From contig WGBD01000002.1 of NCBI GenBank assembly GCA_015494465.1, positions 197,267 to 261,266 on the forward strand: 64,000 nt of DNA. The letters are read 5' to 3'. Origin of the DNA: Candidatus Omnitrophota bacterium (lineage in GTDB: Bacteria; Omnitrophota; Gorgyraeia; S143-82). Position numbers and translations under genes: made by a program. Position 1 is the stretch's first letter; every line of letters begins with the position of its first letter. Positions 12,493-54,072 of the stretch are shown here, one piece after another. The notes beneath the pieces are model-generated. The model was not told the DNA's origin, made no database searches, and saw only the letters and a list, made by a program, of their open reading frames with translations.

Positions 12493-12524
12493 AAACCCCC
12501 CTTAGCGATCCAGTTCACAAACAG

Positions 12525-12613
12525 CGGAGAGGGCGGGATTCGAACCCGCGGGCCCCCTTACGGAGGCCAACTGCTTAGCAGGCAGCTGCTTTCAACCACT
12601 CAGCCACCTCTCC
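12525..12613 (-). tRNA. tRNA-Ser (anticodon GCU), type II with long variable arm
   Basis: The reverse complement folds as acceptor GGAGAGG/CCTCTCC, anticodon stem GCTGC/GCAGT with loop CTGCTAA, a long GGCC...GGCC variable arm, and T-arm GCGGG-TTCGAAT-CCCGC. CCA is not encoded. Confidence 0.85.
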
Positions 12614-13068: not shown

Positions 13069-13071
13069 AAC

Positions 13072-16491: not shown

Positions 16492-16506
16492 ATCCCTCAA
16501 CCTCTC

Positions 16507-16593
<87 letters not shown>

Positions 16594-16649
16594 AGTTAGG
16601 ATAGATAATTATATCACAAAACCCAAAAGGGCAAGGTAGAATCCGCGGA

Positions 16650-17402
16650 TCAGGTCCGTCCCTGTTTGGCCAAAAAGGCAGTGAAGATCTCCAACGGCAG
16701 AGGGAAGACCACCGTAGTCGTGTTCTCGGTAGAGATGTCCACCAGGGTCTGCAGGTACCTCATCTGCAGGGCAATCGGCTGGTCCTTTAACATCTCCGAG
16801 GCCTGGCGGAGTTTCTCCGCTGCCTGTAACTCGCCCTCTGCTGCGATGATCTTGGCCCTTCTCTCCCTCTCTGCCTCTGCCTGTCTGGCCATGGCCCTCT
16901 GCATCTCCTGAGGCAGGTCCACATGCTTTATCTCTACCGTGGTCACCTTCACGCCCCAAGGGTCGGTCTGGCGGTCTATTATCTCCTGCAAGCGGGTGTT
17001 TATCTTCTCCCTGTCCGAGAGCAATTCGTCCAATTCCACCTGTCCAACGATGCTCCTCAACGCGGTCTGGGATATCTGAGAGGTGGCGTAATCGTAGTTC
17101 TCCACCTCTATAACCGCCTTAACCGGATCCATCACCCGGTAATACACCACCGCATTCACCTTCACCGACACATTATCCTTGGTAATGATGTCCTGAGGAG
17201 GGACATCCAAGGTGACCAACCGCATGCTCACCACCTTCATCGTCTCGAACGGCCAGAATATCAGGATGAGTCCCGGACCGCGCGGGCCACCCAACACCCG
17301 TCCAAGGGTAAAGACCACCGCCCGTTCGTACTCCTTGAGTATCCGGGCGCACTGAAAGAGGTACCAAACCACTGCCACTAACAAGAACAACATAAACCCC
17401 AT
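16650..17402 (-). CDS. SPFH/band-7 (stomatin-like) membrane protein
   Basis: 250 aa with an N-terminal TM anchor, a band-7 domain and a C-terminal coiled coil ([22 protein letters not shown]). Confidence 0.85.
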
Positions 17403-17405
17403 ACC

Positions 17406-18749
17406 TCACCCCCTTTCTCTTACCACCAAGGTCAACCCCTCTACCCTCACGACCTCCACCTTCCTGCCGACGGGGATAACGCCCTTCCCCTCGCTACGGG
17501 CAGACCAGTAGGTACCATCTGCAAACACCTTGCCCCCGGAAGGAGACACCTCCTTTACCACCTCCCCTATCTGGCCCACGAGGGACTCCGCCCCCACCCT
17601 GGCCCGCATCCTCCTTACGCGCAGGGCCAGATAGACGATCCCAGTGGCAATAGCGCCCAACATCAACCCGGGTATGACTATCCAGGCCTTGGGGAGGGGG
17701 AAAAGGGCTCCCTCCTTATTCCACAGTATCAGGCCACCCCATACGAAGGAGATCGTCCCTGCCAAGGCCAGGATACCAAAACCGGGAGTCAAGACCTCGC
17801 CAAAGAAGAATGCCACCCCCAGGAGTATGAGGAGCAGGCCAAAGTAGTTTACCGGGAGCAGGCCGTATCCGTATAGACACAGTCCCAAGCCGATCAGTCC
17901 CACTACGCCAGGCACGCCAAATCCAGGATGAGTCAGTTCAAACAGTATCAACAGGAGGGAAAGCGAATACAGGACATAGAGGACATAGGGATGGGTAAGG
18001 TAGTACATCAAGAGGTCCATCCCCTCGAGGCGTTTGTACACAAGATTTACTCTATTGCTGGGGGAAAGAACCCCCTTCTCCTCGGCCACCGCAATCAACT
18101 CCCGCACATCGGTGCATATCGCATCAATTATACCGTACTTTAGGGCCTCCTCCTCGGTGAGGGCACGACTCCTGGTAATCAACTCCTTGGCAATCTCCTC
18201 GTCAGCACTGGGATGCTTATTGCGGACATAGGAGAGGAAAAAGGCAATCGTATCGTTGACTACCTTCTCCTGAAGCAGATCTTCTTTTTCATCCTCACTT
18301 CCCAACATCACCGGATGGGCTGCCCCTATGTGGGTGCTCGGTGCCATAGCGACGAAGTCGCAAGCAAGGGCCAGGAGTGCCCCTGCGGATCCCGCCCGGG
18401 CCCCTTTGGGATAGACGAAGGCAAGGGTAGGGACCGGCGAGGCCAGGATCTCCTTGACTATCTTTCGACAGGACTCCAAAAATCCCCCGGGGGTATCGAT
18501 CAAGAATATCACGCCTTGATACTCCTCGGCGTGTTCCATCTCCCTCTGAACGAGGGACACCAACGGCGGAGATATAACCTTATCGTCTATCTCTATAACC
18601 AGATAATTCGCACTGGAAAGGAACGGCCTGAGAATTTGAGAACCCGAATCCGAAGCGAAGAGAAGGCAACCTATGGACAGAGAAAAAGCAAAAAGGAGAA
18701 AAACGGACTTCCACCTAATCCCAGCGATCCCCGGCCTCCTTAAAAACAA
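17406..18749 (-). CDS. NfeD-family membrane-bound serine protease (stomatin operon partner)
   Basis: 447 aa with a ClpP-like N-terminal domain, a multi-TM middle region and a C-terminal OB-like domain. Classic nfeD-stomatin gene pair. Confidence 0.8.
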   Translation of the reverse strand: MFLRRPGIAGIRWKSVFLLFAFSLSIGCLLFASDSGSQILRPFLSSANYLVIEIDDKVISPPLVSLVQREMEHAEEYQGVIFLIDTPGGFLESCRKIVKEILASPVPTLAFVYPKGARAGSAGALLALACDFVAMAPSTHIGAAHPVMLGSEDEKEDLLQEKVVNDTIAFFLSYVRNKHPSADEEIAKELITRSRALTEEEALKYGIIDAICTDVRELIAVAEEKGVLSPSNRVNLVYKRLEGMDLLMYYLTHPYVLYVLYSLSLLLILFELTHPGFGVPGVVGLIGLGLCLYGYGLLPVNYFGLLLILLGVAFFFGEVLTPGFGILALAGTISFVWGGLILWNKEGALFPLPKAWIVIPGLMLGAIATGIVYLALRVRRMRARVGAESLVGQIGEVVKEVSPSGGKVFADGTYWSARSEGKGVIPVGRKVEVVRVEGLTLVVRERG

Positions 18750-18752
18750 AAA

Positions 18753-18825
18753 TGGACCGGAGGGGAGTCGAACCCCCGACCTTCGGTATGCCGAACCGAC
18801 GCTCTCCCAACTGAGCTACCGGCCC
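18753..18825 (-). tRNA. tRNA-Ala (anticodon GGC)
   Basis: Reverse complement GGGCCGGTAGCTCAGTTGGGAGAGCGTCGGTTCGGCATACCGAAGGTCGGGGGTTCGACTCCCCTCCGGTCCA. It has a G3:U70 pair. Anticodon arm TCGGT-TCGGCAT-ACCGA, with an unusual C at position 33. Confidence 0.75.
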
Positions 18826-18840
18826 ATGTCTTACAAATCC

Positions 18841-18912
18841 TGCCCCTGGCAGGACTCGAACCTGCGCACCAGGCTCCGGAGGCCTGTGCTCTATCCCCTG
18901 AGCTACAGGGGC
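18841..18912 (-). tRNA. tRNA-Arg (anticodon CCG)
   Basis: Reverse complement GCCCCTGTAGCTCAGGGGATAGAGCACAGGCCTCCGGAGCCTGGTGCGCAGGTTCGAGTCCTGCCAGGGGCA. Anticodon loop CTCCGGA. Confidence 0.85.
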
Positions 18913-32943: not shown

Positions 32944-32984
32944 GGAACCGTCCCCCTATAAATTAAAAACCCCACCATTGCCGT

Positions 32985-33099
32985 GGGGACAGGCATAGTC
33001 TGAACCCCAAAACTAGGTGGGCACCTGCCGACTACCCCACGGGGTAGCCGGACTCCGGCTCCCAGTTTCGAGGTGTTGGTTCAGCTACTTGCCTTCCCC
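32985..33099. other. GC-rich structured intergenic element (candidate small RNA or regulatory RNA), strand unknown
   Basis: 115 nt. Its ends form a long interrupted helix (GGGACAGGCATAGTCTGAACC with GGTTCAGCTACTTGCCTTCCCC). Internal hairpins TACCCCACGGGGTA and GCCGGACTCCGGC. GC-rich, unlike other intergenic regions here. Confidence 0.25.
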
Positions 33100-33168
33100 T
33101 CACGCGCATGGTAGGGACCGCTTCCAACACCAATTTAATGATAGCAGAAGGCAGGCAAAAAGGCAAGT

Positions 33169-33462
33169 TTACATCTGCAGGCGCATCAGTTCCTGATAGG
33201 CGTCTATCAACTTGTTGCGGATCTCCATCATGGTCATAAAGGCCAGGTTCGCCTCCTCCACCGCGACCAGGACCTGGTGGATGTCCTTGACCTGGCCCTT
33301 GGCGAGTTTCTCCATGGCGTTCTCTGCGTTCAGCTGGAGCTGGTTCACCTTATCTATACTCTCTTTCAGGATGGAGGCAAAGTCAACATCTCCGGAGACC
33401 TTTCCCGAGGGCTTAGGGGTCAAGGGCCCTATACCACCAACTCCAATCTTATCTATCGCCAT
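33169..33462 (-). CDS. fliE: flagellar hook-basal body complex protein FliE
   Basis: 97 aa with FliE-family C-terminal helices. SD GAGGTGA upstream. Confidence 0.8.
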   Translation of the reverse strand: MAIDKIGVGGIGPLTPKPSGKVSGDVDFASILKESIDKVNQLQLNAENAMEKLAKGQVKDIHQVLVAVEEANLAFMTMMEIRNKLIDAYQELMRLQM

Positions 33463-33468
33463 ACCTCA

Positions 33469-33867
33469 TCACCTCAACATGTCCAGCGTCCTTATGTAGT
33501 TCTGCTTCTGCAGGTTGAAGGCTGCGATGTTCGCCTCGTAGGCTCGGGAGGCGGTTATCATCTTCGTCCACTCCTCTACCAGATTTATCCTCGGATAGTG
33601 GACATAACCGTACTGGTCCGCATCGGGGTGGTCGGGATCGTACACCAGACGATAGGAATCCTGCTCCTGTATCCCGATAACCCTTACCCCCTGGGCATCG
33701 GGGGCGCTCTGGAGGATCACCTCCTGCCGTTTATAAGGCCCTCCTTCCGGGGTGCGGGTGGTGTTGATGTTGGCCAGGTTGTTGGCGTAGGTCTCTATGC
33801 GCCGTTTCTCCGCACGCAGACCACTCACCGATATCTCCATCCCGGAAAACACGCTGGAAACCTGCAT
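33469..33867 (-). CDS. flgC: flagellar basal-body rod protein FlgC
   Basis: Start at ATG 33865-33867 (MQVSSVFSGMEISVSGL...) with SD GAGGTG upstream. Conserved N-terminal rod motif ANNLANINTT. Confidence 0.85.
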   Translation of the reverse strand: MQVSSVFSGMEISVSGLRAEKRRIETYANNLANINTTRTPEGGPYKRQEVILQSAPDAQGVRVIGIQEQDSYRLVYDPDHPDADQYGYVHYPRINLVEEWTKMITASRAYEANIAAFNLQKQNYIRTLDMLR

Positions 33868-33894
33868 TATCACACCTCGTCCCGCCTAGTTATT

Positions 33895-34275
33895 CTATTC
33901 CGGCCTACCTCTTATTATACTCTCGAACAGGTCAAACCGCGACCTCAAAAGTTGGACCATGGACTGGTAATCCATGGAATCCTCGGTAATCTTCACTAAT
34001 TCTTCGTCCAACTCCACCGGCCTGCCCGTGTCCTTTATCGGAATCTTTTCCAGGCCCGGCGAAGAGATTCGTGCCGGGATGTGGCGAGGGTTGGTCCGCT
34101 CCAGCTCCAAGCGCATCTGCTCCTTCTCCAAGACCTTGGCAAAGTCCACCCGCTTAGCGGTGTATCCGGGGACATTCACATTGGCGATGTTGTTGGCCAA
34201 CACCTTGATCTCCCGGGAAAGGACCGTCATACGATCTACCACTGCGGACTCTGTCTTACCTACGAACATACCCAT
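33895..34275 (-). CDS. flgB: flagellar basal-body rod protein FlgB
   Basis: Start at ATG 34273-34275 (MGMFVGKTES...) with SD AGGAGGG 5 nt upstream. The upstream track extension is spurious. Confidence 0.8.
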   Translation of the reverse strand: MGMFVGKTESAVVDRMTVLSREIKVLANNIANVNVPGYTAKRVDFAKVLEKEQMRLELERTNPRHIPARISSPGLEKIPIKDTGRPVELDEELVKITEDSMDYQSMVQLLRSRFDLFESIIRGRPE

Positions 34276-34298
34276 AACATCCCTCCTACCTAATAGGA

Positions 34299-34314
34299 TG
34301 CAAAATGCGTGCCA
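34299..34314 (-). promoter_or_regulatory. sigma-54 (RpoN) -24/-12 promoter for flgB-flgC-fliE
   Basis: The minus strand reads TGGCACGCATTTTGCA, a perfect match to TGGCAC-N5-TTGCA. It lies ~25 nt upstream of the flgB start. Confidence 0.6.
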
Positions 34315-34359
34315 ATATGCTGGATTGACACGGGGACATCCCTCTATTAGAATCACCTC

Positions 34360-35301
34360 ATGAAGACATCCAAAAGAGCAACCGAGATCGCCTTAGTTTT
34401 TATCCCCTTGGGTGCGTTATTCTTTTACCTCTCCTCCAAACACCTGGTCACCGCAGATGTAAACCTATACTACGACATCGGAAGGAACCTCCTATCCCTC
34501 AAACCCTACTGCAGTTTTGACATCTACGCAACCAGCCCTGAGGCCTACTTCCCTGCCCTGCCCTTCACTGCACCCCTCTGGCCATTGGTGGCTGGGATAA
34601 GCATAAGGCTCCTTGGCACCTACGGGCCGTGGATGATCAACCCACTGCTCTTGCTCGCAAGCGCCTTCGTCTTTTACCGGATAGCCCACAGATTCCTCGC
34701 CCATGAACAGGCCCTGATGGCAACCGCCTTGGCCTTTACCTCCCTGCCCATACTCCTGATTGCAATGTATCCTTGGACGGAGACCCTGGGCCTACTCCTA
34801 TTGCTGCTAATAGTCCATCAAGTCCTCTCCGGGGCCCGGCCCCTCCACACCGGCCTGTTATTGGCCTTGGAGGGTCTAACCCGACCCCACTACCTCCTGC
34901 CCGCCCTGATAATCACCGCCATTTGGAGCAAGCGAAAAAGGGACCTTTTGACCGCATTACTGACCAGTGCAGTCTTGCTTCTCACCTACGAGGGAGTGTG
35001 TCTGGTGCTTTGGAAACTGCCCTACCCCAGTATGTACCTATTGCCCCTGAACAACTTCTCGCCTCCGATTGGCAAGACAGATCTGGGGGAGGCAGTGATA
35101 GGCTACCTACACACATTAAAAGACCTCCTGCTCAACACCCCAACCCTCCCAATAGGAGTCCTTGCCCTTCTCCTCGGATTCTGGCTCAAGCAGGCCCAAG
35201 GGCTGGACGGACGGGTAGTAAAACTCCTCTGGACCTATCTGGTATTGGTCGTTACCTATCCCGTTTTATTCCTGATATTGATCCTCAAGGGGGTATGGTA
35301 G
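34360..35301 (+). CDS. polytopic integral membrane protein (~9-10 TM), possibly the N-terminal part of a GT-C/ArnT-like glycosyltransferase
   Basis: 313 aa, very hydrophobic. It ends at TAG 35299-35301, overlapping the next ATG. Confidence 0.45.
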   Translation: MKTSKRATEIALVFIPLGALFFYLSSKHLVTADVNLYYDIGRNLLSLKPYCSFDIYATSPEAYFPALPFTAPLWPLVAGISIRLLGTYGPWMINPLLLLASAFVFYRIAHRFLAHEQALMATALAFTSLPILLIAMYPWTETLGLLLLLLIVHQVLSGARPLHTGLLLALEGLTRPHYLLPALIITAIWSKRKRDLLTALLTSAVLLLTYEGVCLVLWKLPYPSMYLLPLNNFSPPIGKTDLGEAVIGYLHTLKDLLLNTPTLPIGVLALLLGFWLKQAQGLDGRVVKLLWTYLVLVVTYPVLFLILILKGVW

Positions 35302-35744
35302 TGAGGTTGCTTCCCATAGACACCATACGATTTGCCTCCCTCCACGCACCGTTCGCCATCCTCATCGCAATGGTACTCGTATCCAAGGTCCGCAACCGCC
35401 TGCTTCCCAACATACTGACGATACTCCTGTGCCTGTACTCTGCCTACTCTCTCATCGCATCCATCCTCATCTCCCAGATACTAGCCACTAAACAGAGACC
35501 CGGTTATCTCTTCGTCGAGAAGATACGCCCTTACCTCCGATCCCAAGAGGTCATTTGCAGCCAGGACATACAACTGCCCTGGTATCTGGTAGACAATCCC
35601 GTAGGAAAGGTCTCTCGGGATAGACAAGGAGAATACCTGCAGTGGAAAGGCTGTAAAGCCCTGGTCATAAGGAGGGAAAAGGGTCAGTGGGTCCTCTTGA
35701 AACCCAAGGAGTACGGGAAGGACACCAAATCATCCCCTAAGTAA
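35295..35744 (+). CDS. membrane protein (3 TM plus soluble C-terminal domain); may be a continuation of the preceding gene
   Basis: ATG at 35295 (MVVRLLPIDTIRF...). ATGGTAG overlap with the upstream gene. Different frame. Confidence 0.4.
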   Translation: MVVRLLPIDTIRFASLHAPFAILIAMVLVSKVRNRLLPNILTILLCLYSAYSLIASILISQILATKQRPGYLFVEKIRPYLRSQEVICSQDIQLPWYLVDNPVGKVSRDRQGEYLQWKGCKALVIRREKGQWVLLKPKEYGKDTKSSPK

Positions 35745-36874
35745 TCTCCCTCGCACAACACGACCGCCCGGTGGATGCAGTTCTCCAGTTCCCGCACATT
35801 GCCCGGCCAATCGTAGTCCAAAAGGACCCTCATAGCGGAGTCAGTGATGCCCTTTATCTCCTTGCCCACCTTCTTGCTATACCGACGGAGAAAGGCCTCT
35901 GCCAACAGGGGGATGTCTTCTTTCCTTTCCCGCAAGGGCGGGACATATATAGGCACCACATTCAACCTAAAGAACAGGTCTTCCCGGAACCTTCCTTCCT
36001 TCACCTCCTGGGCCAGATCCCGATTGGTGGTAGCCACCACCCTCACATCCACCTCGACAGGGGAACTTCCCCCTATCCTATCCACCTCTCCCTCCTGAAG
36101 GACCCGCAACAACTTCGCCTGCAGGTGGAGGGGCATCTCCCCTATCTCGTCCAAAAGTATCGTTCCCCCGTGGGCGAGTTCAAACTTTCCCTTGCGGGTG
36201 TAGACCGCTCCGGTAAAGGCCCCCTTCTCGTGGCCAAACAACTCCGCTTCCACGAGGGTATCGGGTATTGCCGCGCAGTTCACCCTCACATAGGGCCCAT
36301 CTGCCCGCTGGCTCAAGGCGTGGATCCTGCGGGCGATTAATTCCTTCCCCGTACCGGTCTCACCCATTATGAGGACCGTCGCATCACTGCAGGCAATCTT
36401 CTCCAACTCCCTTTTGAGGGCCCTTATAGGAGCGGACTCCCCTATGAACTCCTCCCCCACCTCCGACTGGCACCTAACCAGTTCCTTCAACCGGACATTT
36501 TCCTCTTTCAGCCTGTGGGCCTCCAGGGTCTTCTCCACCACCACCTCAAGTTCGTCGGCGGAGAAGGGCTTCATGATGTAATCGCTGGCGCCCTTCTTCA
36601 TGGCGGTCACCGCGGTGTCCACCGTTCCGTAGGCGGTAATCATTATCACCGGCAGGTTGGGGAATTTCTCCTTCACCTTCTCCAGGAACTCTATCCCCGA
36701 CATCTCGGGCATACGCATGTCGGTAATCACCAGATCGCAACCGCCCTTATCCAAAAGGGAAAGCCCCTTCTTCGGCGAATTCACCGCCCTAACCTTGTGG
36801 CCCGCCTCCTTAAGGACCATCCTCAAGGACTCCAAGACCAGATCGTCGTCGTCCACGACTAATATGGAAGCCAT
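35684..36874 (-). CDS. sigma-54-dependent response regulator lacking a C-terminal DNA-binding domain (FlgR-like)
   Basis: Start at ATG 36872-36874 ([11 protein letters not shown]), with SD GGAGGT. REC domain plus AAA+ sigma-54 activator domain ([21 protein letters not shown]). The protein ends ~25 aa after the AAA+ domain. No Fis-type HTH. Confidence 0.8.
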
Positions 36875-37686
36875 ATAACGACCTCCGCCCCTTTTTCCCA
36901 ATTCCCGAACTCCACCTCTCCCCCGTGGGCCTCCACTATCCGGCTGGTTATCGCCAGCCCCAACCCGGTCCCTTTGGTCTTAGTGGTGAAGAAGGGCTCG
37001 CACAACCTTCCCATCACCCCTTCGGGGAATCCCGGGCCGGTATCCCTTACGGATATCCCAACCCTGCCTCCCCTCACCTCGCAGGACAACCAGATCTGAC
37101 CTTTATCCCCAACCGCATCCACCGCGTTGTCCAATACATTCAACAGGGCCCTCTCCAGATAATCCGGATCCGCGGAGAACCTCACCTCCTCGTCGGAGAC
37201 GGAAAGGGTTATATCCTTGCCCTCCAAGGCAGGGACCAGAAACTTCTGCATCCTTCGGGAAAGGTTCCGCCAGGAGACCTGCACCTTGTTGAGGGATATG
37301 TCCTGGGCGAAGTTCAGGATGTCCCCTATTATCGACTCCATCCTATTAACGCCCGCCCGGATGTTCTCTATCAGCTCCCTCGCACCCGGATCTCGAACCT
37401 TCTTCTCCAACATAGATACCGACAAGGAGATCCCTGCCAGCGGATTCCTTATCTCGTGGGCAAGGGTGGCCGCCATCTCCCCGATGGCTGCAAGACGCCG
37501 GGAACGCTCCAACTGCTCGGTAAGCTCTGCGATCCTGCGCTCCAGGACCGCGTAGTACTCTATCAACTCCGCGCTGGTCTTGGAAAAGGCGTCAAAGGCC
37601 TTTATCAGCTCCTCAGGTGGGGTCTCTCTTGCCAGATCACCGCCGGCGATCGACGAATCTGGCCTCTTTACCGGTTCCCTTTCCAT
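36859..37686 (-). CDS. cytoplasmic sensor histidine kinase (FlgS/FleS-like)
   Basis: 275 aa, no TM segments. HisKA H-box LAHEIRNPLAGI. HATPase_c N/G boxes. It overlaps the regulator start by 16 nt. Confidence 0.75.
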   Translation of the reverse strand: MEREPVKRPDSSIAGGDLARETPPEELIKAFDAFSKTSAELIEYYAVLERRIAELTEQLERSRRLAAIGEMAATLAHEIRNPLAGISLSVSMLEKKVRDPGARELIENIRAGVNRMESIIGDILNFAQDISLNKVQVSWRNLSRRMQKFLVPALEGKDITLSVSDEEVRFSADPDYLERALLNVLDNAVDAVGDKGQIWLSCEVRGGRVGISVRDTGPGFPEGVMGRLCEPFFTTKTKGTGLGLAITSRIVEAHGGEVEFGNWEKGAEVVIWLPY

Positions 37687-38068
37687 AGTACGCCTTCACC
37701 GCCTTCTTGCCCGCGTTCACCTGGGAAAGGTCCGCCTCCAGACGATCCTTACTTTTCTGGACCTGTTCCACCAACACCCCTTCCAACTCCAACAGCCTCT
37801 TCACCACCGCCTCTATCTCCTCGAAAAGGGCCGCGATCCTCTCCTTTTCCTCTCTAGGGAGATCCCCCCGATTTTGCTTCCACCACATCTTCAGTTCGGC
37901 GAGCCTGTCGTCTATCGACTGTATCTTCAATACCAATTCTTGCTTTTTCTTCAGGGCAGAGAACAAAAAATCCACATCCCCGCCCCGTTCCACCTGCTGG
38001 TTGGAGATCTCCAGCATCTGCCTGTACAGGTCCAGTTCCTCCTCCAGCCCTGCTATCAGGGCCACCAC
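37637..38068 (-). CDS. small coiled-coil protein, FlgN-like/flagellar chaperone-like (tentative); start uncertain
   Basis: Candidate GTG starts at 38065/38068 or the ATG at 38017. Sequence ...LVLKIQSIDDRLAELKMWWKQ...EEKERIAALFEEIEAVVKRLLELE. It overlaps the kinase start by 50 nt. The longer track ORF overlaps the upstream TPR gene. Confidence 0.35.
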   Translation of the reverse strand: MVALIAGLEEELDLYRQMLEISNQQVERGGDVDFLFSALKKKQELVLKIQSIDDRLAELKMWWKQNRGDLPREEKERIAALFEEIEAVVKRLLELEGVLVEQVQKSKDRLEADLSQVNAGKKAVKAYYGKGTGKEARFVDRRR

Positions 38069-38076
38069 CTCTTTAT

Positions 38077-41000
38077 TCACTTCTTCAACTCCTCCAAAAG
38101 CTCCTTTGCCTGATCCAGTTTCTGCCGGATCTGGGCCTCGTTCTTCTGCCAGTGGGCCTCCTTCGCCCATATGCTATCCGGGTACTTCTCTATAACCGCG
38201 TCGAAGTAGACATTCGCCTTGCCGATGTTCCCCTGCATCTTGTAGCACATCCCTATCTGATACAGGACCCAATCCGGGACATCCTTGCCTTTGTCCTCGT
38301 ACACCTGCTTGATCTTCTTGTACATCTTCAAGGCGCTCTTAAAGGCCCCCATGCGGTAATTGGTGTCTGCCAGCTTCAGCAAGGCATTCATTATAGCATC
38401 GAAGGCCTCGGGATCCTTACCCCCTATTTTTAGAGAAATCCTGCCGCCTACATCCTTCAGATCCGCGTCGTAATAGCGGAGCAGACGGGTCAGATACTTG
38501 GCGTACAACTTGACCGCAGGACCGTAATCGCCCTTTCCCACCAAGGCATCCGCCTCGAGTCTCAACAGCTCCGTGAGGCGCTCCCAGTCCGTGGTCAAGG
38601 CCCGGGCGTTCTTGAAGGCCTCGTAGGCCTCCTCGTACTTCTCCAAGCGCATGTAGATCTTCCCCAAGGACTCCCAGGCCAAGGCCTTTAGGGCCCTGTC
38701 GCCCAGAAAGCGGTTCCTGGCTATGCGTTGGTACTGATCTATCGCCTCTTGGATCTGGCCTGCCTCTTCGTAGGTCCGTCCCAGCATGTACCTGCACTTG
38801 AACCTCCAAGGACTCAAGGGAGAACTGCGGATAGCATCTTTGAAACTCTCTATTGCCTTGGCATAATCTTGGTTATAAAAATAAGCAATGCTGAGACGGT
38901 ACATGATCTTGCCCCTGTCCAGGGCCTTGTACTTCTTGAATTCGGTAAGCACCCCAACGAAGACACCAATCGCCTTCTGATACTCGCCTGACCGCAGTAG
39001 GGCATCTGCCTTGGCGAGGTATATCTTGAGCCTCAATCTCTTCTCGTCTTTGGGGATCTTTCTCAAGAGCTTGTCGTAGACCTTCACCGCGGAGATGTAG
39101 TCCCCTCCCAACTCGTACATTCTCGCAAGGTACCAATAGGCCTTCCTTACCTCGGGGTAGTCGGGATACTTCTCTACCAGCGTCCGCAACCACCTCTGGG
39201 CATCCTTGAACCTGACTTGATGGGCCAAGGTCTGGGACAAGAGGAACAAGGCAGAGGGAAGTTTCTCCCACTTGTAAAACCTCTCCTTTAGATCGTACAA
39301 TAGGCGCTCCGCTCGCTTGAAGTCCCTCTTCTCAAAGGCAAGGAGCCTGGCAGCGTCGTAAAGGGCCTGCGCAGACAACTCGTCGTACTTAAACCTGGTC
39401 GCCAACTCGATGTAGGTATCGATTGCGGAATCGATGTCTCCTTTCAGTTCGTAGGCCTGGCCCTTCCTCAACAACAGCTCTGGCAAGAGGTCCTTGGGCA
39501 GATCCTGCTCAGCCGCGCTGTAGACCGAGATCGCCTTGTCGATCTGCCCCGACTTTATCAAGGCATCCGCATAGCGGAACAGGACCTCGGAAAGGTGGGG
39601 ATCATTCTTATAGTCCTCAATGAACAACGGGGCGGTCTCTATTATCCTATCCCAACGCTTATCCTCGGTATACCACCTAACCAATTCGTAGAGGGCCAAG
39701 GGCCGGTAGGGGCTACTGCCTTGCTCCTTAATCAACCGCCACAACTCCTTTTCAGCGGACTCCTCGTCACCGCTGTGCTTGTAGGACAGGGCCAGATAAT
39801 ACCTGGCCTCGTCTATCATGTTGGAGAACGAGAACCTCTCCAAGAACTCCTTGTAGTGCTGGATCGCGGTAGGATAGTCCCCCATTCTATAAGCACTGTG
39901 GGCGATCCGCAAGAGTGCCTTTTCCTTGTTGAGCATCCTGGGAGAGTGCTCGTAGGCAAATCGATAATACTCCATCGCCTTTGCGTACCTCTCTTCTTCC
40001 GGGAGATCTGCCCGCTTATCGAAAAAGGCATCGCCCAATACTATACTGGCATCGTCCAGGAACTTGCTATCTGGAAAGCGGGTCTTGAGTTCCTGAAATA
40101 GATCCTCCGCGGTGGCGTAGTTCTCCTTCTCCACCATCTTATACATCAGGGCAAACAGGTCCGAATCGCTGTAGCCAGCGAATTGGCGGGACTCGGTGGC
40201 CGTGGGTTCCTTCTTGGAAACGGACAAAAGCCTGACCACCCCGATAGCGATCAACAAGAAGGACAATAAGGATAAGGCAAAGATACCATAGGCCAAGAGC
40301 GGAGGGAACGCAGGCACTGCCTTGCTCTCAGATGGAGATGACTCTTGGGAGGAAACATCCTGCACGGTCTCGACCGGAACTGCGGAATCGGTTATCTCTG
40401 TAGAGGGGACATCCTGAGGGACCTCTATGTCCTTGTTGGTATCTACGACCTCTTCCTTTATCTCTACTTCGTCTATGCTTATCTTCTCTTCCGAGGACTG
40501 CTCTTTTTCAGAGGAAGCCGACGGCGCAGGGCCCTCTCCCAGCAGAAGGGCGCGTTCGTCCCCCACGCCCTCAGGGACCTCTTCGCCACCTGGAATCTCC
40601 TCCTGCGCCGTCTCTTCCTCACCCCCCTTTGTGCTACTGTCAACAGCAGCCTCTTGGTGCGGAGAACCCTGCACCTCTCCGACATCCTCAGCGGTCCCTA
40701 CCTCTTCGACCTCGCTCTTATCACCTCCTTCCTCCTTTGCCTCTTCGGTGCCTTCCGTTTCCTCTCTGCCCTCTCCGGACTCTGGTTTGGCCTCCGCCTC
40801 CCCCTCGGAGGCCTCCCCCTCTGCCTCTGAAGTCTCCTTTTCCTTATCACTCCGGCCCTCGTCTTCTAAGACCTCTTTAGGGCCTTTATCTTCCTGCTCC
40901 CCTTCGTTCTCCCGTTTCTCCTCTTGCCCTTCCTCCTCTTCTGGCGCGGGTTCCTCTCCCACCGTCTCTCCCTGCCCCGCAACCCTATCTTCTCCCTTAT

Positions 41001-41217
41001 CCCCTTTCGCCTCCTCCCTTTCCTCCTCAGGCTGGGCAGACTCCGGACCCCCTGCCTCTATCTCAACCCCCAAAAAGTCCTTTATCCCAGCCACTACTTC
41101 GGGAGTAAGTTCTATCTCGTCGTCGCCGGTCAACTCCTGTCCCACTACCACGCTGATGGCGCAGGAGAGTTCGGTCAGGTCCAGATTGTACTTCTCCGCC
41201 AGTTCCCTTAACTTCAT
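38077..41217 (-). CDS. 1046-aa membrane protein: N-terminal SAP/HeH-like segment, ~250-aa acidic low-complexity linker, one TM helix, ~700-aa TPR-repeat domain
   Basis: N-terminus MKLRELAEKYNLDLTELS. Linker E/G/K-rich. TM helix AFPPLLAYGIFALSLLSFLLIAIGVV. More than 15 TPR-like repeats. Translationally coupled (ATGA) to the upstream MerR gene. Confidence 0.6.
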   Translation of the reverse strand: MKLRELAEKYNLDLTELSCAISVVVGQELTGDDEIELTPEVVAGIKDFLGVEIEAGGPESAQPEEEREEAKGDKGEDRVAGQGETVGEEPAPEEEEGQEEKRENEGEQEDKGPKEVLEDEGRSDKEKETSEAEGEASEGEAEAKPESGEGREETEGTEEAKEEGGDKSEVEEVGTAEDVGEVQGSPHQEAAVDSSTKGGEEETAQEEIPGGEEVPEGVGDERALLLGEGPAPSASSEKEQSSEEKISIDEVEIKEEVVDTNKDIEVPQDVPSTEITDSAVPVETVQDVSSQESSPSESKAVPAFPPLLAYGIFALSLLSFLLIAIGVVRLLSVSKKEPTATESRQFAGYSDSDLFALMYKMVEKENYATAEDLFQELKTRFPDSKFLDDASIVLGDAFFDKRADLPEEERYAKAMEYYRFAYEHSPRMLNKEKALLRIAHSAYRMGDYPTAIQHYKEFLERFSFSNMIDEARYYLALSYKHSGDEESAEKELWRLIKEQGSSPYRPLALYELVRWYTEDKRWDRIIETAPLFIEDYKNDPHLSEVLFRYADALIKSGQIDKAISVYSAAEQDLPKDLLPELLLRKGQAYELKGDIDSAIDTYIELATRFKYDELSAQALYDAARLLAFEKRDFKRAERLLYDLKERFYKWEKLPSALFLLSQTLAHQVRFKDAQRWLRTLVEKYPDYPEVRKAYWYLARMYELGGDYISAVKVYDKLLRKIPKDEKRLRLKIYLAKADALLRSGEYQKAIGVFVGVLTEFKKYKALDRGKIMYRLSIAYFYNQDYAKAIESFKDAIRSSPLSPWRFKCRYMLGRTYEEAGQIQEAIDQYQRIARNRFLGDRALKALAWESLGKIYMRLEKYEEAYEAFKNARALTTDWERLTELLRLEADALVGKGDYGPAVKLYAKYLTRLLRYYDADLKDVGGRISLKIGGKDPEAFDAIMNALLKLADTNYRMGAFKSALKMYKKIKQVYEDKGKDVPDWVLYQIGMCYKMQGNIGKANVYFDAVIEKYPDSIWAKEAHWQKNEAQIRQKLDQAKELLEELKK

Positions 41218-41546
41218 TGCCCATCGCTCGCTTCACCCTTTTTCCGCTCGCTGTCGAACTCCTGCTCCAAGATGTCCCGTATCTGCAACAGACTGTACCC
41301 TTGTGCCTTCAACTCCTTTATCCGCTTCAGGCGGGGGAAGACATCCTCCCCGTAAAGCCTGTGCCCCGAGGGGGTGCGAGAGTGCTCTTTTATCAACCCT
41401 AACTGAGTGTAGTTGTGGAGGATCTGACGAGAAAGCCCGGTGTAGTACATCACCTCGCCGATCTTGTAGAGCTTGGGAGGGATGAGCACATCGTCCGGAG
41501 ATCCCGGTGGTTGGTTTTGCAAGTTATCTTTTTCGTTATTCAACAT
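41214..41546 (-). CDS. MerR-family transcriptional regulator
   Basis: ATG at 41544-41546 (MLNNEKD...). The track start at 41564 is a TTG. HTH KLYKIGEVMYYTGLSRQILHNYTQLGLI. The stop overlaps the start of the next gene. Confidence 0.7.
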   Translation of the reverse strand: MLNNEKDNLQNQPPGSPDDVLIPPKLYKIGEVMYYTGLSRQILHNYTQLGLIKEHSRTPSGHRLYGEDVFPRLKRIKELKAQGYSLLQIRDILEQEFDSERKKGEASDGQ

Positions 41547-41581
41547 AAACTTTGCCTTTGGCAAATTGCTATGTGAATAAT

Positions 41582-41740: not shown

Positions 41741-42421
41741 CTACCTTCTCCTGCGCCGGAAAGAGAAGAGGACGGGAAGGGCGAGCCCCAACAGGGACAG
41801 CGAAGCGGGTTCGGGGACGATCCCTTGCAGGCCCCCTTCACCCTTTTTGGCGAGGATCCAGGCGGAGGTATAGGGGTCGCTCACCGCGTCGTCCGCAATA
41901 TAGCCCTTCTTTCCTCCGTAGGTATACACATTCCCCGACATGGTAGAATAAGAGGTGATCCTGTATATGTACCGCCTAGTACTCGGCCCAGTCCCTGAGG
42001 CCACATCAGCGATCCTGCCTATCCAGTACCTGTAATAGGTCATACCCGAGAGCTTGTCCCTAGTGTAGGGGAATACCGACCAATCCTCGTCTATCACTGG
42101 GACGAGGGTAGCGACCTCATCTTCCCTCGCTAGGCGCCACGATCCGTACCCTGAAAAGTCGTACCCGCTTACCGCCATCTCACTTGCAGGGACTATGGCA
42201 TCCAAGATAGACTGGATGTCAAACAGCGTCTTCTGGGTAAAGAGGCCCAGATTCCGCAACCACACCACCTCGTTGGTGTCGTCGTAGACCACGCTTAGCT
42301 GTCTTCCGTTATAGATAAGGTTGGAGGGCGTTAAGATGGCTATCGAGGCATAACCTGTTAGCACCACCCCACTGAGCAACCAGACTGCCACACCCACGGA
42401 GGAAAGCACCAACCTCTTCAT
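41741..42421 (-). CDS. PEP-CTERM sorting-domain protein (exosortase substrate)
   Basis: 226 aa with a signal peptide. C-terminus VPEPASLSLLGLALPVLFSFRRRRR, i.e. PEP motif, TM helix and Arg cluster. Confidence 0.65.
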   Translation of the reverse strand: MKRLVLSSVGVAVWLLSGVVLTGYASIAILTPSNLIYNGRQLSVVYDDTNEVVWLRNLGLFTQKTLFDIQSILDAIVPASEMAVSGYDFSGYGSWRLAREDEVATLVPVIDEDWSVFPYTRDKLSGMTYYRYWIGRIADVASGTGPSTRRYIYRITSYSTMSGNVYTYGGKKGYIADDAVSDPYTSAWILAKKGEGGLQGIVPEPASLSLLGLALPVLFSFRRRRR

Positions 42422-43749: not shown

Positions 43750-44572
43750 CATCTCTTATTCCCTATTCTTCGGATTCCTTGCCTACTTCGCTATCCTCTT
43801 GTACCTCTACTTCAACCAAGATCGACTCATATTCCTCCCCACACCCGGTACCCCGATCATCACCCCCGCGAACTACGGTATAGATTACGAATCCCACATC
43901 CTACCCATCAACGACAAAGAAAGCGTCCACCTCTGGTTCATCCCCGGCAAGGAAGAACAGAGCCCCGTTCTCCTGTTCTGCCACGGGAATTCAGGCAACC
44001 TCGGTTCTCGGTTAGAGATACTAAGGGTCCTCTATCAACTTGGGATCCCTATAGCCATCTTTGACTACCGCGGATACGGGGAGAGTCGGGGGCGTCCTTC
44101 GGAAAAACACCTCTACGAAGACGGGGAACGGGTGCTAAGGTTCCTGAAGACCGAAAAGGGATACCCCCTCAAGGAGACCATCGTCATGGGAAGATCCTTG
44201 GGAGGGGCGGTGGCCTGTGAACTCGCCTACCGCCACCCCGATCTCTCAGGCCTTATACTGGACTCCGCCTTTACCTCTCTGGCAGAGATAGCCCAGATAC
44301 GCTATCCCTATGTCCCGGTATCGCTCTTATTAAAGTACCGCTTCGACAATCTATCCAAGGTCCAAGCAATCTCCATTCCAAAGCTGATAATCCACTCTCT
44401 TCAGGACGAGGTGATCCCCTTCTCCCTGGGACAGAGGCTATTCCAACGAGCCCGGCCTCCTAAGAGGTTCCTCTCCCTGCCCGCAGGTGGGCACAACGAT
44501 GCCTTCCTAGAATCCCAGGAAAGGTACCTTCAGGGGCTGAAAGAATTCCTGAGCGAAATAAGATCCCACTAA
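43724..44572 (+). CDS. alpha/beta-fold hydrolase
   Basis: 282 aa with an N-terminal TM segment, nucleophile elbow GRSLGG and a C-terminal His. Confidence 0.7.
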   Translation: MIWLILKNSISYSLFFGFLAYFAILLYLYFNQDRLIFLPTPGTPIITPANYGIDYESHILPINDKESVHLWFIPGKEEQSPVLLFCHGNSGNLGSRLEILRVLYQLGIPIAIFDYRGYGESRGRPSEKHLYEDGERVLRFLKTEKGYPLKETIVMGRSLGGAVACELAYRHPDLSGLILDSAFTSLAEIAQIRYPYVPVSLLLKYRFDNLSKVQAISIPKLIIHSLQDEVIPFSLGQRLFQRARPPKRFLSLPAGGHNDAFLESQERYLQGLKEFLSEIRSH

Positions 44573-45159
44573 TCCCGAAAGGGGCGGAAAAAGGGATGCG
44601 TAGCTAAGGCGAGCATCTCCCTGTCACCCCTGGAATCCCCGTAGGCGTAGATCTCGTCGTATTGGGATAGATCGAAGACCTCCCGAATCCTCCTCGTCTT
44701 CTCTGCCCCGTAACAATTCTTGCCCAAGATCTTCCCGGTAACTATCCCGTCCCTTTCCTCTAACTCCACCCCGATCACCCTTCGTATCCCTACCCCCTTG
44801 GCCCAGGGCCGGAGATAAACCTCCAAAGAGGCAGAAACGATCGCCACCTCGTCCCCTCTAGACTGATGCCAGGTTATTCTATCTAACGCCTTTGGTCTTA
44901 CCAAGGCAGGCAACCGCTCCTTCGCGAACCTCTGCCCCAAATCCGCCACCTCCTTTAGGGTCCTGCCAGAGAGGGTAGCGGTAAGTACCCTTTCCTTTAC
45001 GCTTTGATTATCAACCAACCCCAAGAAGTATCCGAGGAGATAAGGCCACTGACCCAATAAGCGAGGATAGAAATCCCACCCCAATGCATAGCGCAAGAAC
45101 TCAGAGATACTCTCTCGATAGGTAATAGTACCGTCGAAGTCAAAGAGGGCTAGATTCAT
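44569..45159 (-). CDS. HAD-superfamily hydrolase (subfamily IB-like)
   Basis: 196 aa. Motif I LFDFDGTIT. Distal Asp motif YGDSRGD. Confidence 0.65.
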   Translation of the reverse strand: MNLALFDFDGTITYRESISEFLRYALGWDFYPRLLGQWPYLLGYFLGLVDNQSVKERVLTATLSGRTLKEVADLGQRFAKERLPALVRPKALDRITWHQSRGDEVAIVSASLEVYLRPWAKGVGIRRVIGVELEERDGIVTGKILGKNCYGAEKTRRIREVFDLSQYDEIYAYGDSRGDREMLALATHPFFRPFRD

Positions 45160-45394
45160 CCGGTCCGGCTCTCTTGTTTAGGAGCTCACTGATCTCCTCT
45201 AAGGAGAGCTCGCTCTCTGCAGATACGAGGTTCTCGTTCCTTATCTGCTCGAATATCTCTTTTCTATAGACCGGGATCGAGGCGGGAGCCTTTATGCCCA
45301 ACTTCACCACCTCTCCCCTTACATCGAGAACGACGACCTCCACATCGCTCCCGATCATTAGGCTCTCCTGTTTCTTCCTGGTCAATACCAGCAT
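45140..45394 (-). CDS. csrA: carbon storage regulator CsrA
   Basis: 84 aa: MLVLTRKKQESLMIGSDVEVVVLDVRGEVVKLGIKAPASIPVYRKEI. Classic CsrA. Confidence 0.9.
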   Translation of the reverse strand: MLVLTRKKQESLMIGSDVEVVVLDVRGEVVKLGIKAPASIPVYRKEIFEQIRNENLVSAESELSLEEISELLNKRAGPDESSPL

Positions 45395-45847
45395 CTATCC
45401 TACAGCCTCTTCTTCCCGCTGGGTCTCTACTCTAAGGACCTCAAACTGGAGAGGATACTCTTCAGGATCGAGAACTACTTGCTTGGCCTTTTTGTTAATC
45501 CTATTCACCAGTATAGGGCCTTGCAGGTTAAGCGTCACCCGCAAGGGATTCTTCCTAATAGAGACCAACACCCATATCTCTCCGTTTGACAGCTCGGTAA
45601 GCCCGATGTCCTCCAGCTGACTCCTATGGAGTCGGATCTTGTAATCGGGAACGAACACCAAGGGATTCGTGATTACGAAGGCCAAGGCGGGATTCTCTAC
45701 CGACTGCATCCAATAAAAAGGGCCGTTGTCCTCTCGCAATATCACATACCTGCGCTCAGAGGGAAAACCCAGTATTCCCTGGGGGAAATCTATTATCTCA
45801 TCCTTGGATATCCTTATCTCCCCAAACCTCGTGGTGTGGATCTTCAT
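45395..45847 (-). CDS. fliW: flagellar assembly factor FliW
   Basis: 150 aa: MKIHTTRFGEIRISKDEIIDFPQGILGFP. FliW family, directly upstream of csrA. Confidence 0.9.
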   Translation of the reverse strand: MKIHTTRFGEIRISKDEIIDFPQGILGFPSERRYVILREDNGPFYWMQSVENPALAFVITNPLVFVPDYKIRLHRSQLEDIGLTELSNGEIWVLVSIRKNPLRVTLNLQGPILVNRINKKAKQVVLDPEEYPLQFEVLRVETQREEEAVG

Positions 45848-53900: not shown

Positions 53901-53916
53901 TGCAAATACCGTGCCA
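53901..53916 (-). promoter_or_regulatory. sigma-54 (RpoN) -24/-12 promoter for the flgF-G-A-H-I...csrA operon
   Basis: The minus strand reads TGGCACGGTATTTGCA, a match to TGGCAC-N5-TTGCA. It lies ~25 nt upstream of the flgF ATG. Confidence 0.6.
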
Positions 53917-53988
53917 AAGAAATGAGAGGATACCAATTTAAGGTCAATTTAAGGTAAGGTAAAGGCGAGGAAGTAAGAAATCAAAAAC

Positions 53989-54061
53989 TGGACCGGAGGG
54001 GAGTCGAACCCCCGACCCCCACGTTGCGAACGTGGTGCTCTCCCAACTGAGCTACCGGCCC
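53989..54061 (-). tRNA. tRNA-Ala (anticodon CGC)
   Basis: Reverse complement GGGCCGGTAGCTCAGTTGGGAGAGCACCACGTTCGCAACGTGGGGGTCGGGGGTTCGACTCCCCTCCGGTCCA. G3:U70 pair. Anticodon arm CCACG-TTCGCAA-CGTGG. The backbone is identical to the tRNA-Ala at 18753-18825 outside the anticodon arm. Confidence 0.85.
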
Positions 54062-54072
54062 ATGTCTAAGGA

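What the first reader, a model, noticed from the sequence alone, without database searches (positions are those of the whole stretch)
34299..34314. Textbook sigma-54 promoter (TGGCACGcattTTGCA) driving flgB-flgC-fliE
This is an exact match to the -24 GG and -12 GC consensus with correct spacing. It lies ~25 nt upstream of the flgB ATG and is followed by the SD AGGAGGG. It implies RpoN-dependent class II rod gene expression.
Basis: seen in the sequence. Interest (0 to 1): 0.5.

Follow-up and report, generated by a model that had tools for sequence, protein, structure and literature searches.

The report
Sigma-54 promoter of flagellar rod operon
The flagged 16 bases are very probably a real sigma-54 promoter, on the minus strand, for the flagellar rod genes flgB-flgC-fliE; this is a long-known way of switching on rod genes, so the finding is correct but ordinary.

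Summary
The motif is confirmed. TGGCACGCATTTTGCA lies at 34314->34299 on the minus strand, 23 nt before the flgB ATG (34275). An AGGAGG ribosome-binding site lies in between.

It is not chance. TGGCAC-N5-TTGCW occurs twice in 64 kb against 0.02 expected. The second copy (53916->53901) lies 23 nt before flgF, the first gene of the flgF-to-flgL operon. No other site in the window rises above shuffled-sequence noise.

The element is conserved. All seven independent relatives with 56-86% identical FlgB, or an orthologous activator gene, carry a -24/-12 element just upstream of flgB, or of fliE in one case. The flgF site recurs in two relatives.

A matching activator lies 1.4 kb upstream. It is a response regulator with a sigma-54-interaction AAA+ domain (GAFTGA) and no DNA-binding domain. 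A soluble histidine kinase gene sits beside it. This resembles Helicobacter FlgS/FlgR, and it fits the 84-bp control region, which has no room for an enhancer.

rpoN is not in the window, so its presence in the genome could not be checked. The transcription start (about 34288) and the "class II" label are inferences.

Verdict: a new member of a known kind, in an uncultivated lineage whose DnaE is closest (about 55%) to Omnitrophota genomes. Low interest.

The parts
34299..34314 (-). Sigma-54 -24/-12 promoter element TGGCACGCATTTTGCA. GG is at 34313-34312 and GC at 34301-34300.
   Evidence: maximum score; 2 sites against 0.02 expected. Conserved in relatives.
34286..34290 (-). Predicted transcription start, about 34288 +/- 2. 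This is an inference from the usual distance of about 12 nt from the GC element. The leader would be about 13 nt.
   Evidence: Geometry read. Not measured.
34281..34287 (-). Ribosome-binding site AGGAGGG, 6 nt before the flgB ATG.
33895..34275 (-). flgB, proximal rod protein, 126 aa.
   Evidence: Pfam Flg_bb_rod. NCBIfam TIGR01396, 71.3 bits against a cut-off of 59.05. Start codon fixed by orthologues.
33469..33873 (-). flgC, proximal rod protein, 134 aa.
   Evidence: TIGR01395, 131.3 bits against 102.1.
33169..33462 (-). fliE, 97 aa, last gene of the unit.
   Evidence: TIGR00205, 91.2 bits against 30.
53901..53916 (-). Second sigma-54 promoter, TGGCACGGTATTTGCA, 23 nt before the flgF ATG (53877). 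It heads flgF-flgG-flgA-flgH-flgI-flgJ-flgN-flgK-flgL, followed by fliW and csrA.
   Evidence: Conserved as TGGCACGATTGTTGCA in L093 and L094.
35684..36874 (-). Candidate activator, 396 aa: a response regulator with a sigma-54-interaction AAA+ domain. It has GAFTGA at residue 218, Walker A and B motifs and an arginine finger. It has no C-terminal HTH DNA-binding domain.
   Evidence: aligns only to about position 380 of 430-463-residue profiles; 14 orthologues of 394-397 aa, none with HTH_8.
36859..37686 (-). Cognate histidine kinase, 275 aa. It is soluble and has no sensor domain. The H-box HEIRNP is at residue 77. The gene overlaps the activator gene.
   Evidence: no hydrophobic segment.
37637..38170 (-). 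Gene for a FlgN/FliT-like protein that overlaps the kinase gene. It belongs to a conserved module: merR, TPR protein, FlgN-like protein, kinase, activator.
   Evidence: Same gene order in L001, L086, L087, L089 and L091.

Best explanation
The element at 34314->34299 (minus strand) is the sigma-54 (RpoN) promoter of a flgB-flgC-fliE transcription unit. RNA polymerase carrying sigma-54 binds the -24 GG and -12 GC elements as a closed complex. That complex cannot open DNA by itself. An ATP-dependent AAA+ activator opens it.

The most likely activator is the response regulator encoded 1.4 kb upstream in the same flagellar cluster (35684-36874). It would be phosphorylated by the adjacent soluble histidine kinase (36859-37686). 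This activator has no DNA-binding domain. It would therefore contact the promoter-bound polymerase from solution, without an enhancer, as described for Helicobacter pylori FlgR.

This fits the local layout. The promoter sits in an 84-bp divergent control region with no room for upstream activator sites. The same pair would also switch on the identical promoter before flgF. The rod, ring and hook-junction genes would then be expressed together.

Transcription is predicted to start near 34288, giving a leader of about 13 nt that begins with the ribosome-binding site.

Shown: the motif, its excess over chance, its position, its conservation, the gene identities and the activator's domain make-up.
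Inferred: that sigma-54 binds here, the start point, which activator acts, and the signal the kinase senses. By analogy with Campylobacter FlgS, that signal may be completion of the export apparatus, MS ring and rotor.
For: - The motif matches the consensus perfectly, with GG-N10-GC spacing.
- Two sites are found against 0.02 expected, both 23 nt before the first gene of a flagellar rod operon and in the sense orientation.
- The weight-matrix scan gives these two sites at 18.6 and the rest at or below 13.9, which is noise level.
- No sigma-70-like site lies on the minus strand upstream of flgB, and the upstream neighbour is divergent.
- Each relative's flgB upstream region holds the best or near-best sigma-54 site of its locus within 90 nt. 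These are L004, L003, L005, L001/L002, L089 and L091; in L086 the site lies before fliE. The chance expectation is 0.002-0.03 per locus.
- The flgF site is conserved in L093 and L094.
- The pattern is widespread. 51 of 85 flgB loci from many phyla carry a site scoring at least 13 upstream, against 4 on the antisense control strand.
- The activator has REC, Sigma54_activat and AAA_lid domains, a GAFTGA motif and no HTH.
- The kinase is soluble.
- Literature: sigma-54 together with a flagellum-associated two-component system drives the flgB, flgF and flgK operons in Campylobacter, Vibrio and Pseudomonas (PMC7064773). [quoted passage not shown]
Against: - rpoN is not among the genes of the window. 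All ORFs of about 140 aa or more were screened. The source genome could not be retrieved.
- No transcript data exist, so the start site and the dependence on sigma-54 are unmeasured.
- The activator does not reach the NCBIfam cut-off for Campylobacter FlgR (349 bits against 750). Its link to these promoters rests on gene neighbourhood and analogy only.
- In two relatives (L089, L091) the element has a weaker -24 half (TGGTAT) and ends only 12-14 nt before the start codon. That would leave almost no leader. The element may not work in the same way everywhere in the clade.
- The weight matrix is my own approximation of the published consensus.
Confidence: 0.88

Rival explanations
1. The promoter is a real sigma-54 promoter, but a different activator encoded outside the window fires it. 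That activator would be a DNA-binding master regulator of the FleQ/FlrA or FlbD type. The neighbouring activator without a DNA-binding domain would serve other targets or play only a minor role.
For: - Many bacteria carry several sigma-54 activators.
- Only 64 kb of the genome is visible.
- The neighbouring regulator does not reach any NCBIfam equivalog cut-off.
- In Vibrio and Pseudomonas two flagellar sigma-54 activators coexist (PMC7064773).
Against: - The 84-bp control region leaves no room for the usual binding sites at -80 to -150, unless they lie inside the divergent gene.
- The kinase-activator pair is linked to flgB throughout the clade. In L001, L089 and L091 it sits directly in front of flgB.
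- All 14 orthologues lack a DNA-binding domain, which suits enhancer-less promoters.
Confidence: 0.1
2. The motif is a chance look-alike. flgB would be transcribed from an unrecognised sigma-70 or sigma-28 promoter, or by read-through.
For: Short consensus motifs can arise by chance. A one-mismatch copy at 42390-42375 is indeed a chance match, inside the signal-peptide coding region of a PEP-CTERM protein gene.
Against: - 0.02 exact matches are expected and 2 are found, both at the same distance before rod operons.
- The element is conserved in seven independent relatives, and the second site in two more.
- No sigma-70-like site lies on that strand.
- Read-through is unlikely because the upstream genes are on the opposite strand.
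Confidence: 0.02

Closest known systems
RpoN / FlgS-FlgR regulon of Helicobacter pylori and Campylobacter jejuni (class 2 rod and hook genes)
   Same: - Sigma-54 -24/-12 promoters lie directly before rod genes.
- A cytoplasmic kinase is paired with a REC-AAA+ activator encoded among the flagellar genes.
- The activator lacks a DNA-binding domain, as H. pylori FlgR does, so activation is expected to need no enhancer (PMC3372290, PMC3162934, PMC7064773).
   Different: - The activator is not an orthologue by NCBIfam score: 349 bits against a cut-off of 750 for Campylobacter FlgR. It scores higher against the AtoC and NtrC models.
- Its nearest outgroup proteins (at most 57% identity) all carry HTH_8. 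The domain loss is therefore probably independent.
- The host is an uncultivated lineage related to Omnitrophota, not a member of the Campylobacterota.
- The kinase is shorter (275 aa). It is preceded by genes for a FlgN-like protein and a TPR protein of about 1050 aa.
FlrBC (Vibrio cholerae) and FleSR (Pseudomonas aeruginosa) class III promoters of flgBCDE, flgFGHIJ and flgKL
   Same: - The same genes, flgB and flgF, head sigma-54-dependent operons controlled by a flagellum-associated two-component system (PMC7064773).
- Gammaproteobacterial flgB loci in my survey carry the same motif roughly 24-45 nt (estimated) before flgB.
   Different: - FlrC and FleR bind DNA; the activator here has no DNA-binding domain.
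- In V. cholerae, fliE belongs to the earlier class (PMC7064773); here it follows flgC.
- No FlrA/FleQ-type master regulator is visible in the window.
Chlamydia CtcB/CtcC
   Same: A kinase is paired with a sigma-54 activator that lacks a DNA-binding domain (PMC3162934, PMC3372290). From my own knowledge, Chlamydiae are usually placed in the same broad group of phyla (PVC) as Omnitrophota.
   Different: The chlamydial system has no flagellar targets. No sequence comparison was made here.
Aquifex aeolicus NtrC1 and NtrC4 (solved structures 1NY5, 4L4U, 3DZD)
   Same: These are the closest solved relatives of the activator over the REC and AAA+ domains (372 bits).
   Different: [quoted passage not shown] The crystallised constructs lack it, whereas the protein here lacks it natively.

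Membership tests
Sigma-54 (RpoN) -24/-12 promoter | TGGCAC-N5-TTGCW core, with GG and GC separated by 10 nt | tested here: met
   TGGCACGCATTTTGCA at 34314->34299 on the minus strand. It reaches the maximum weight-matrix score of 18.6.
Sigma-54 (RpoN) -24/-12 promoter | Lies in non-coding DNA, in sense orientation, a short distance before a gene start | tested here: met
   It lies 23 nt before the flgB ATG, in an 84-bp divergent intergenic region. The start codon is fixed by orthologues.
Sigma-54 (RpoN) -24/-12 promoter | More frequent than chance and conserved at orthologous positions | tested here: met
   2 sites against 0.02 expected. Present before flgB or fliE in 7 of 7 independent relatives. 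The flgF site is present in 2 of 2 close relatives.
Sigma-54 (RpoN) -24/-12 promoter | The genome encodes sigma-54 (rpoN) | not testable with these tools
   No Sigma54 domain protein is in the window. The source genome could not be fetched. Indirect support: an activator with a GAFTGA motif is present. By established knowledge, such activators work only with sigma-54.
Sigma-54 (RpoN) -24/-12 promoter | The genome encodes an AAA+ activator with a GAFTGA loop | tested here: met
   Gene at 35684-36874: Sigma54_activat E = 4e-72; GAFTGA at residue 218.
Sigma-54 (RpoN) -24/-12 promoter | Transcript starts about 12 nt after the GC element and depends on rpoN and an activator | not testable with these tools
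   Needs 5' end mapping or in vitro transcription.
FlgS/FlgR-type flagellar two-component system (enhancer-independent) | REC plus sigma-54 AAA+ activator without a DNA-binding domain | tested here: met
   The Pfam domains end at residue 389 of 405 in the TTG-start ORF that was scanned, about residue 380 of the 396-aa protein. No HTH_8 is found. NCBIfam profiles are matched only to about position 380 of 430-463. All 14 orthologues are 394-397 aa and lack HTH_8.
FlgS/FlgR-type flagellar two-component system (enhancer-independent) | Adjacent cytoplasmic histidine kinase, linked to flagellar genes | tested here: met
   HisKA and HATPase_c domains. No hydrophobic segment. Gene order conserved next to flgB in relatives.
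FlgS/FlgR-type flagellar two-component system (enhancer-independent) | Sequence orthology to Campylobacter FlgR and FlgS (NCBIfam NF049963 and NF049962) | tested here: not met
   349 bits against a cut-off of 750, and 88 bits against 600. It works like FlgSR but should not be filed as an orthologue.
FlgS/FlgR-type flagellar two-component system (enhancer-independent) | Kinase activated by assembly of the export apparatus, MS ring and rotor | not testable with these tools
   Known for C. jejuni (PMC7064773). Here it is only an analogy.
flgB-flgC-fliE proximal rod gene cluster | The three products reach the curated equivalog cut-offs | tested here: met
   FlgB 71.3 bits against 59.05; FlgC 131.3 against 102.1; FliE 91.2 against 30.

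The most novel reading that the evidence does not exclude
In this Omnitrophota-related clade the rod operons may be fired from enhancer-less sigma-54 promoters by an activator that lost its DNA-binding domain independently of Helicobacter FlgR and Chlamydia CtcC. That activator belongs to a conserved five-gene module not described so far as I could find: merR, a TPR protein of about 1050-1100 aa, a FlgN/FliT-like protein, a sensor-less soluble kinase, and the activator. In this reading the chaperone-like protein or the TPR protein, rather than a sensor domain, tells the kinase how far flagellar assembly has progressed. The sigma-54 closed complex sits back-to-back with a probably leaderless sigma-70 promoter, so it could also hinder transcription of the divergent membrane-protein genes.
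Probability: 0.2. Interest if true: 0.4.

Novelty: new member of a known kind. Interest (0 to 1): 0.15.

Why it matters
It extends a well-known regulatory design to an uncultivated lineage near Omnitrophota. In that design, sigma-54 and a flagellum-linked two-component system switch on the rod genes. The finding also gives a clean, testable two-promoter regulon for annotating such genomes. It does not change what is known about sigma-54 or about flagellar hierarchies. The only aspects with some wider interest are the apparently independent loss of the activator's DNA-binding domain and the conserved module of TPR protein, FlgN-like protein, kinase and activator.

Tried and rejected
- **Retrieving the source genome, to look for rpoN and name the organism.** Exact look-ups of the window's FlgB, FlgC and DnaE found no record. 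The cluster look-up gave no names. Taxonomy therefore rests on DnaE similarity alone: about 55% to many Candidatus Omnitrophota genomes, with closer relatives unnamed.
- **A third sigma-54 site.** The one-mismatch match at 42390-42375 lies inside the signal-peptide codons of a PEP-CTERM protein gene, downstream of its own ribosome-binding site and ATG. I rejected it as chance. The other weight-matrix hits, at or below 13.9, are within the noise.
- **The 'terminator-like' hairpin at 34332-34308 that overlaps the promoter.** No gene ends there on that strand. The stem arises because the -24 element (TGGCACG) is partly complementary to the -35 box of the divergent sigma-70-like promoter. The stem is shorter in L004. 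I rejected it as a terminator.
- **The 'terminator' after fliE (32988-32970).** It turned out to be the 3' end of a 6S RNA gene. No separate terminator for the flgB unit was found.
- **The original papers on H. pylori FlgR (PMC93415, PMC438555).** They are not held, so they are cited second-hand through PMC3372290 and PMC3162934.
- **Pfam and NCBIfam searches for the divergent membrane ORFs.** They found nothing.

Full report
**1. The observation**

GG (34313-34312) and GC (34301-34300) are separated by the canonical 10 nt. Read on the minus strand, the motif is followed by tcctattaggtAGGAGGGatgtt and then ATG GGT ATG TTC. The ATG at 34275 is in frame with the flgB ORF and lies 23 nt after the motif. 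The ribosome-binding site AGGAGG(G) ends 6 nt before it.

The mechanical longest ORF starts at a GTG at 34356 and would swallow the motif. That start is wrong. The protein database holds exactly the 126-aa product, and all five orthologues start M-G-x-F at this position.

The three genes downstream are flgB, flgC and fliE. They are identified by Pfam and by NCBIfam equivalog cut-offs.

**2. Is it more than chance?**

- TGGCACNNNNNTTGCW has 2 matches in the 64-kb window against 0.02 expected. None of 100 shuffles reaches 2.
- I built a weight matrix as my own approximation of the published consensus. With it, both sites reach the maximum possible score of 18.6.
- The next best site in the window scores 13.9. 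Shuffled windows give maxima of 11.3-17.2.
- The second site (53916->53901, TGGCACGGTATTTGCA) also lies 23 nt before an ATG. That ATG starts flgF, which heads flgF-flgG-flgA-flgH-flgI-flgJ-flgN-flgK-flgL, followed by fliW and csrA.
- The two perfect sites in the window thus sit in the same geometry before the two rod operons.
- A one-mismatch site at 42390-42375 lies inside the signal-peptide codons of a PEP-CTERM protein gene and is a chance match.

**3. Surroundings**

The gene upstream of flgB is divergent (34360-35301, + strand). It encodes a multi-pass membrane protein with no family match, and a second membrane ORF follows at 35295-35744. flgB therefore needs its own promoter within the 84-bp intergenic region.

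The sigma-70 consensus scan finds nothing on the minus strand there. On the + strand it finds a near-perfect TTGACA-17-TAGAAT that ends 6 nt before the divergent ATG.

Further upstream on the minus strand lies an operon-like run of five genes:
- merR (41564-41214);
- a 1046-aa TPR protein;
- a FlgN/FliT-like protein;
- a 275-aa histidine kinase;
- a 396-aa response regulator with a sigma-54-interaction AAA+ domain.

The regulator has the phospho-acceptor region, Walker A and B motifs, GAFTGA at residue 218 and an arginine finger. It aligns to the AtoC, NtrC, ZraR and FlgR profiles only up to about position 380 of 430-463, so it has no C-terminal HTH domain. The kinase has no hydrophobic segment and no sensor domain.

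rpoN itself is not in the window.

**4. Relatives**

Four FlgB relatives at 56-86% identity were found and their contigs were read.

| Locus | Element before flgB (or fliE) | Intervening nt to the start codon |
|---|---|---|
| L004 | TGGCACGCATTTTGCA | 23 |
| L003 | TGGCACATCTTTTGCT | 25 |
| L005 | TGGCATAGTTTTTGCA | 26 (overlaps the 3' end of the activator gene) |
| L001/L002 | TGGCATAATATTTGCA | 30 |
| L089 | TGGTATGATTTTTGCA | 12 |
| L091 | TGGTATAAGTTTTGCT | 14 |
| L086 (flgB and flgC absent) | TGGCATACTAATTGCT | 64, before fliE |

- The first four loci come; their flanking non-coding sequence differs between loci.
- The activator has a tight orthologue group: 14 proteins at 62-100% identity, all 394-397 aa, none with HTH_8. 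The next-best hits have at most 57% identity, are 448-470 aa long and do carry HTH_8.
- Contigs of four of these orthologues show the same module of merR, TPR protein, FlgN-like protein, kinase and activator.
- In L001, L089 and L091 the activator gene is followed directly by flgB-flgC-fliE-fliF-fliG-fliH-fliI and further flagellar genes.
- L089 and L091 carry the element with the weaker TGGTAT half.
- In every locus the site is the best or near-best of the locus. The chance expectation in 90 nt is 0.002-0.03.
- L089 and L091 also carry strong sites upstream of fliK-flgD-flgE. That is the regulon expected by analogy with Campylobacter.
- The flgF promoter is conserved too. The two close FlgF relatives (66-67% identity) carry TGGCACGATTGTTGCA 26-27 nt before flgF.

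Wider survey:
- Of 85 flgB loci from many phyla, 51 carry a site scoring at least 13 within 300 nt upstream on the sense strand, against 4 on the antisense control strand.
- The site is present in Gammaproteobacteria, anammox Planctomycetota, Cloacimonadales and Fibrobacteraceae.
- It is absent in Firmicutes, Actinomycetota and Alphaproteobacteria.
- Of 80 metagenomic flgF loci, 19 carry such a site, against 0 on the control strand.

**5. Mechanism**

The best explanation is the textbook one.
- Sigma-54 polymerase binds the -24/-12 element as a closed complex, and an AAA+ activator opens it.
- The neighbouring activator lacks a DNA-binding domain, and the control region is only 84 bp long.
- The most economical model is therefore enhancer-independent activation from solution by this activator after phosphorylation by its soluble kinase. 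This is how H. pylori FlgR is described (PMC3372290 and PMC3162934, which cite Brahmachary et al. 2004).
- The same pair would serve the flgF promoter.
- The design matches the 'polar flagellar transcriptional program' of PMC7064773. In that program sigma-54 and a flagellum-associated two-component system drive the flgB, flgF and flgK operons in Campylobacter, Vibrio and Pseudomonas.

The transcription start is predicted at about 34288 for flgB and about 53890 for flgF. Both leaders would be about 13 nt long, with the ribosome-binding site at +2 to +7. This is inference from geometry only.

What the kinase senses is unknown. The link to export-apparatus assembly is only an analogy.

**6. Comparison, membership and novelty**

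As a promoter, the element meets every defining feature that could be tested: core sequence, spacing, position, excess over chance, conservation and a cognate activator. Two features could not be tested: rpoN in the genome and the mapped start site.

The kinase-activator pair works like FlgS/FlgR but fails the curated orthology cut-offs (349 bits against 750, and 88 against 600). I therefore do not file it as FlgSR. The closest solved relatives of the activator are the Aquifex proteins NtrC1 and NtrC4.

The host is uncultivated. Its DnaE has unnamed relatives at 63-96% identity, followed by many Candidatus Omnitrophota genomes at about 55%. A search of the held literature for sigma-54 and flagella in Omnitrophota turned up no paper whose title or abstract deals with it; I did not read the hits.

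The finding is correct but ordinary: a new member of a known kind. 'Class II' is a naming convention that cannot be settled from sequence.

**7. Open points**

- rpoN in the genome and the transcription start are unverified.
- In L089 and L091 the element would leave a leader of only 2-4 nt. This is unexplained.
- No terminator separates fliE from a 6S RNA gene that begins 49 nt downstream. The flgB transcript may run into it.

Noticed in passing
window 32965-33120 (- strand): A full-length 6S (SsrS) RNA gene (Rfam RF00013, 55.3 bits against a gathering score of 46.4) lies 49 nt after the fliE stop and just before znuA. It has its own sigma-70-like promoter, TTGCCT-17-TATCAT, at 33166-33138. 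Its 3' hairpin with T-run (32988-32970) is the only terminator-like site after fliE, so the sigma-54 transcript may read into it.
   Followed up: partly
window 34325-34360 (+ strand): A near-consensus sigma-70-type promoter, TTGACA-17-TAGAAT, ends 6 nt before the ATG of the divergent membrane-protein gene. No ribosome-binding site lies between, so the mRNA is probably leaderless. The same TAGAAT-6 nt-ATG layout is kept in the 86% relative L004. The -35 box lies only 10 bp from the upstream edge of the sigma-54 element, so the two polymerases would overlap on the DNA.
   Followed up: partly
window 34360-35301 and 35295-35744 (+ strand): Two multi-pass membrane protein genes (313 and 149 aa) with no Pfam or NCBIfam match are inserted, in the opposite orientation, between the activator gene and flgB. 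A similar pair sits in the same place in L086 and L087. In L001, L089 and L091 flgB follows the activator gene directly.
   Followed up: partly
window 35684-41564 (- strand); L001, L086, L087, L089, L091: A conserved five-gene module: merR, a TPR protein of about 1050-1100 aa, a FlgN/FliT-like protein, a sensor-less soluble histidine kinase, and a sigma-54 activator without a DNA-binding domain. Neighbouring genes overlap. None of the members I saw carries a source-given name.
   Followed up: partly
L089 11187-11217; L091 7549-7581: In two relatives the sigma-54-like element before flgB has a weaker -24 half (TGGTAT) and ends only 12-14 nt before the start codon (GTG in L089). The predicted leader would be 2-4 nt, and the ribosome-binding site would lie upstream of the transcription start.
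   Followed up: no
L091 14145-14160; L089 18015-18030; L091 16061-16076: Relatives carry strong sigma-54 sites (one scores 19.5) inside the start of a LysM-domain ORF upstream of fliK-flgD-flgE, and another before flgD. This suggests that the hook genes belong to the same regulon.
   Followed up: no
window 53988-54062 (- strand): A tRNA-Ala (CGC) gene lies about 70 nt upstream of the flgF sigma-54 promoter. Four more tRNA genes lie at 12524-18912.
   Followed up: no
window 44569-45847 (- strand): fliW and csrA follow flgL at the end of the flgF operon, and a HAD hydrolase gene overlaps csrA. The same order, flgL-fliW-csrA-HAD, is kept in L086 and L087. This points to FliW-CsrA control of flagellin translation in this lineage.
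   Followed up: no
window 5121-12492 (- strand): A type IV pilus or type II secretion cluster lies here: secretin, T2SSE ATPase, T2SSF platform protein and a pilin-like protein. Several adjacent ORFs, including one of 507 aa, have no family match.
   Followed up: no
window 41741-42421 (- strand): A PEP-CTERM sorting-signal protein gene with its own sigma-70-like promoter, TTGAAA-17-TAGAAT (read by eye, not from the promoter scan). A one-mismatch sigma-54 look-alike inside its signal-peptide codons is a chance match.
   Followed up: yes
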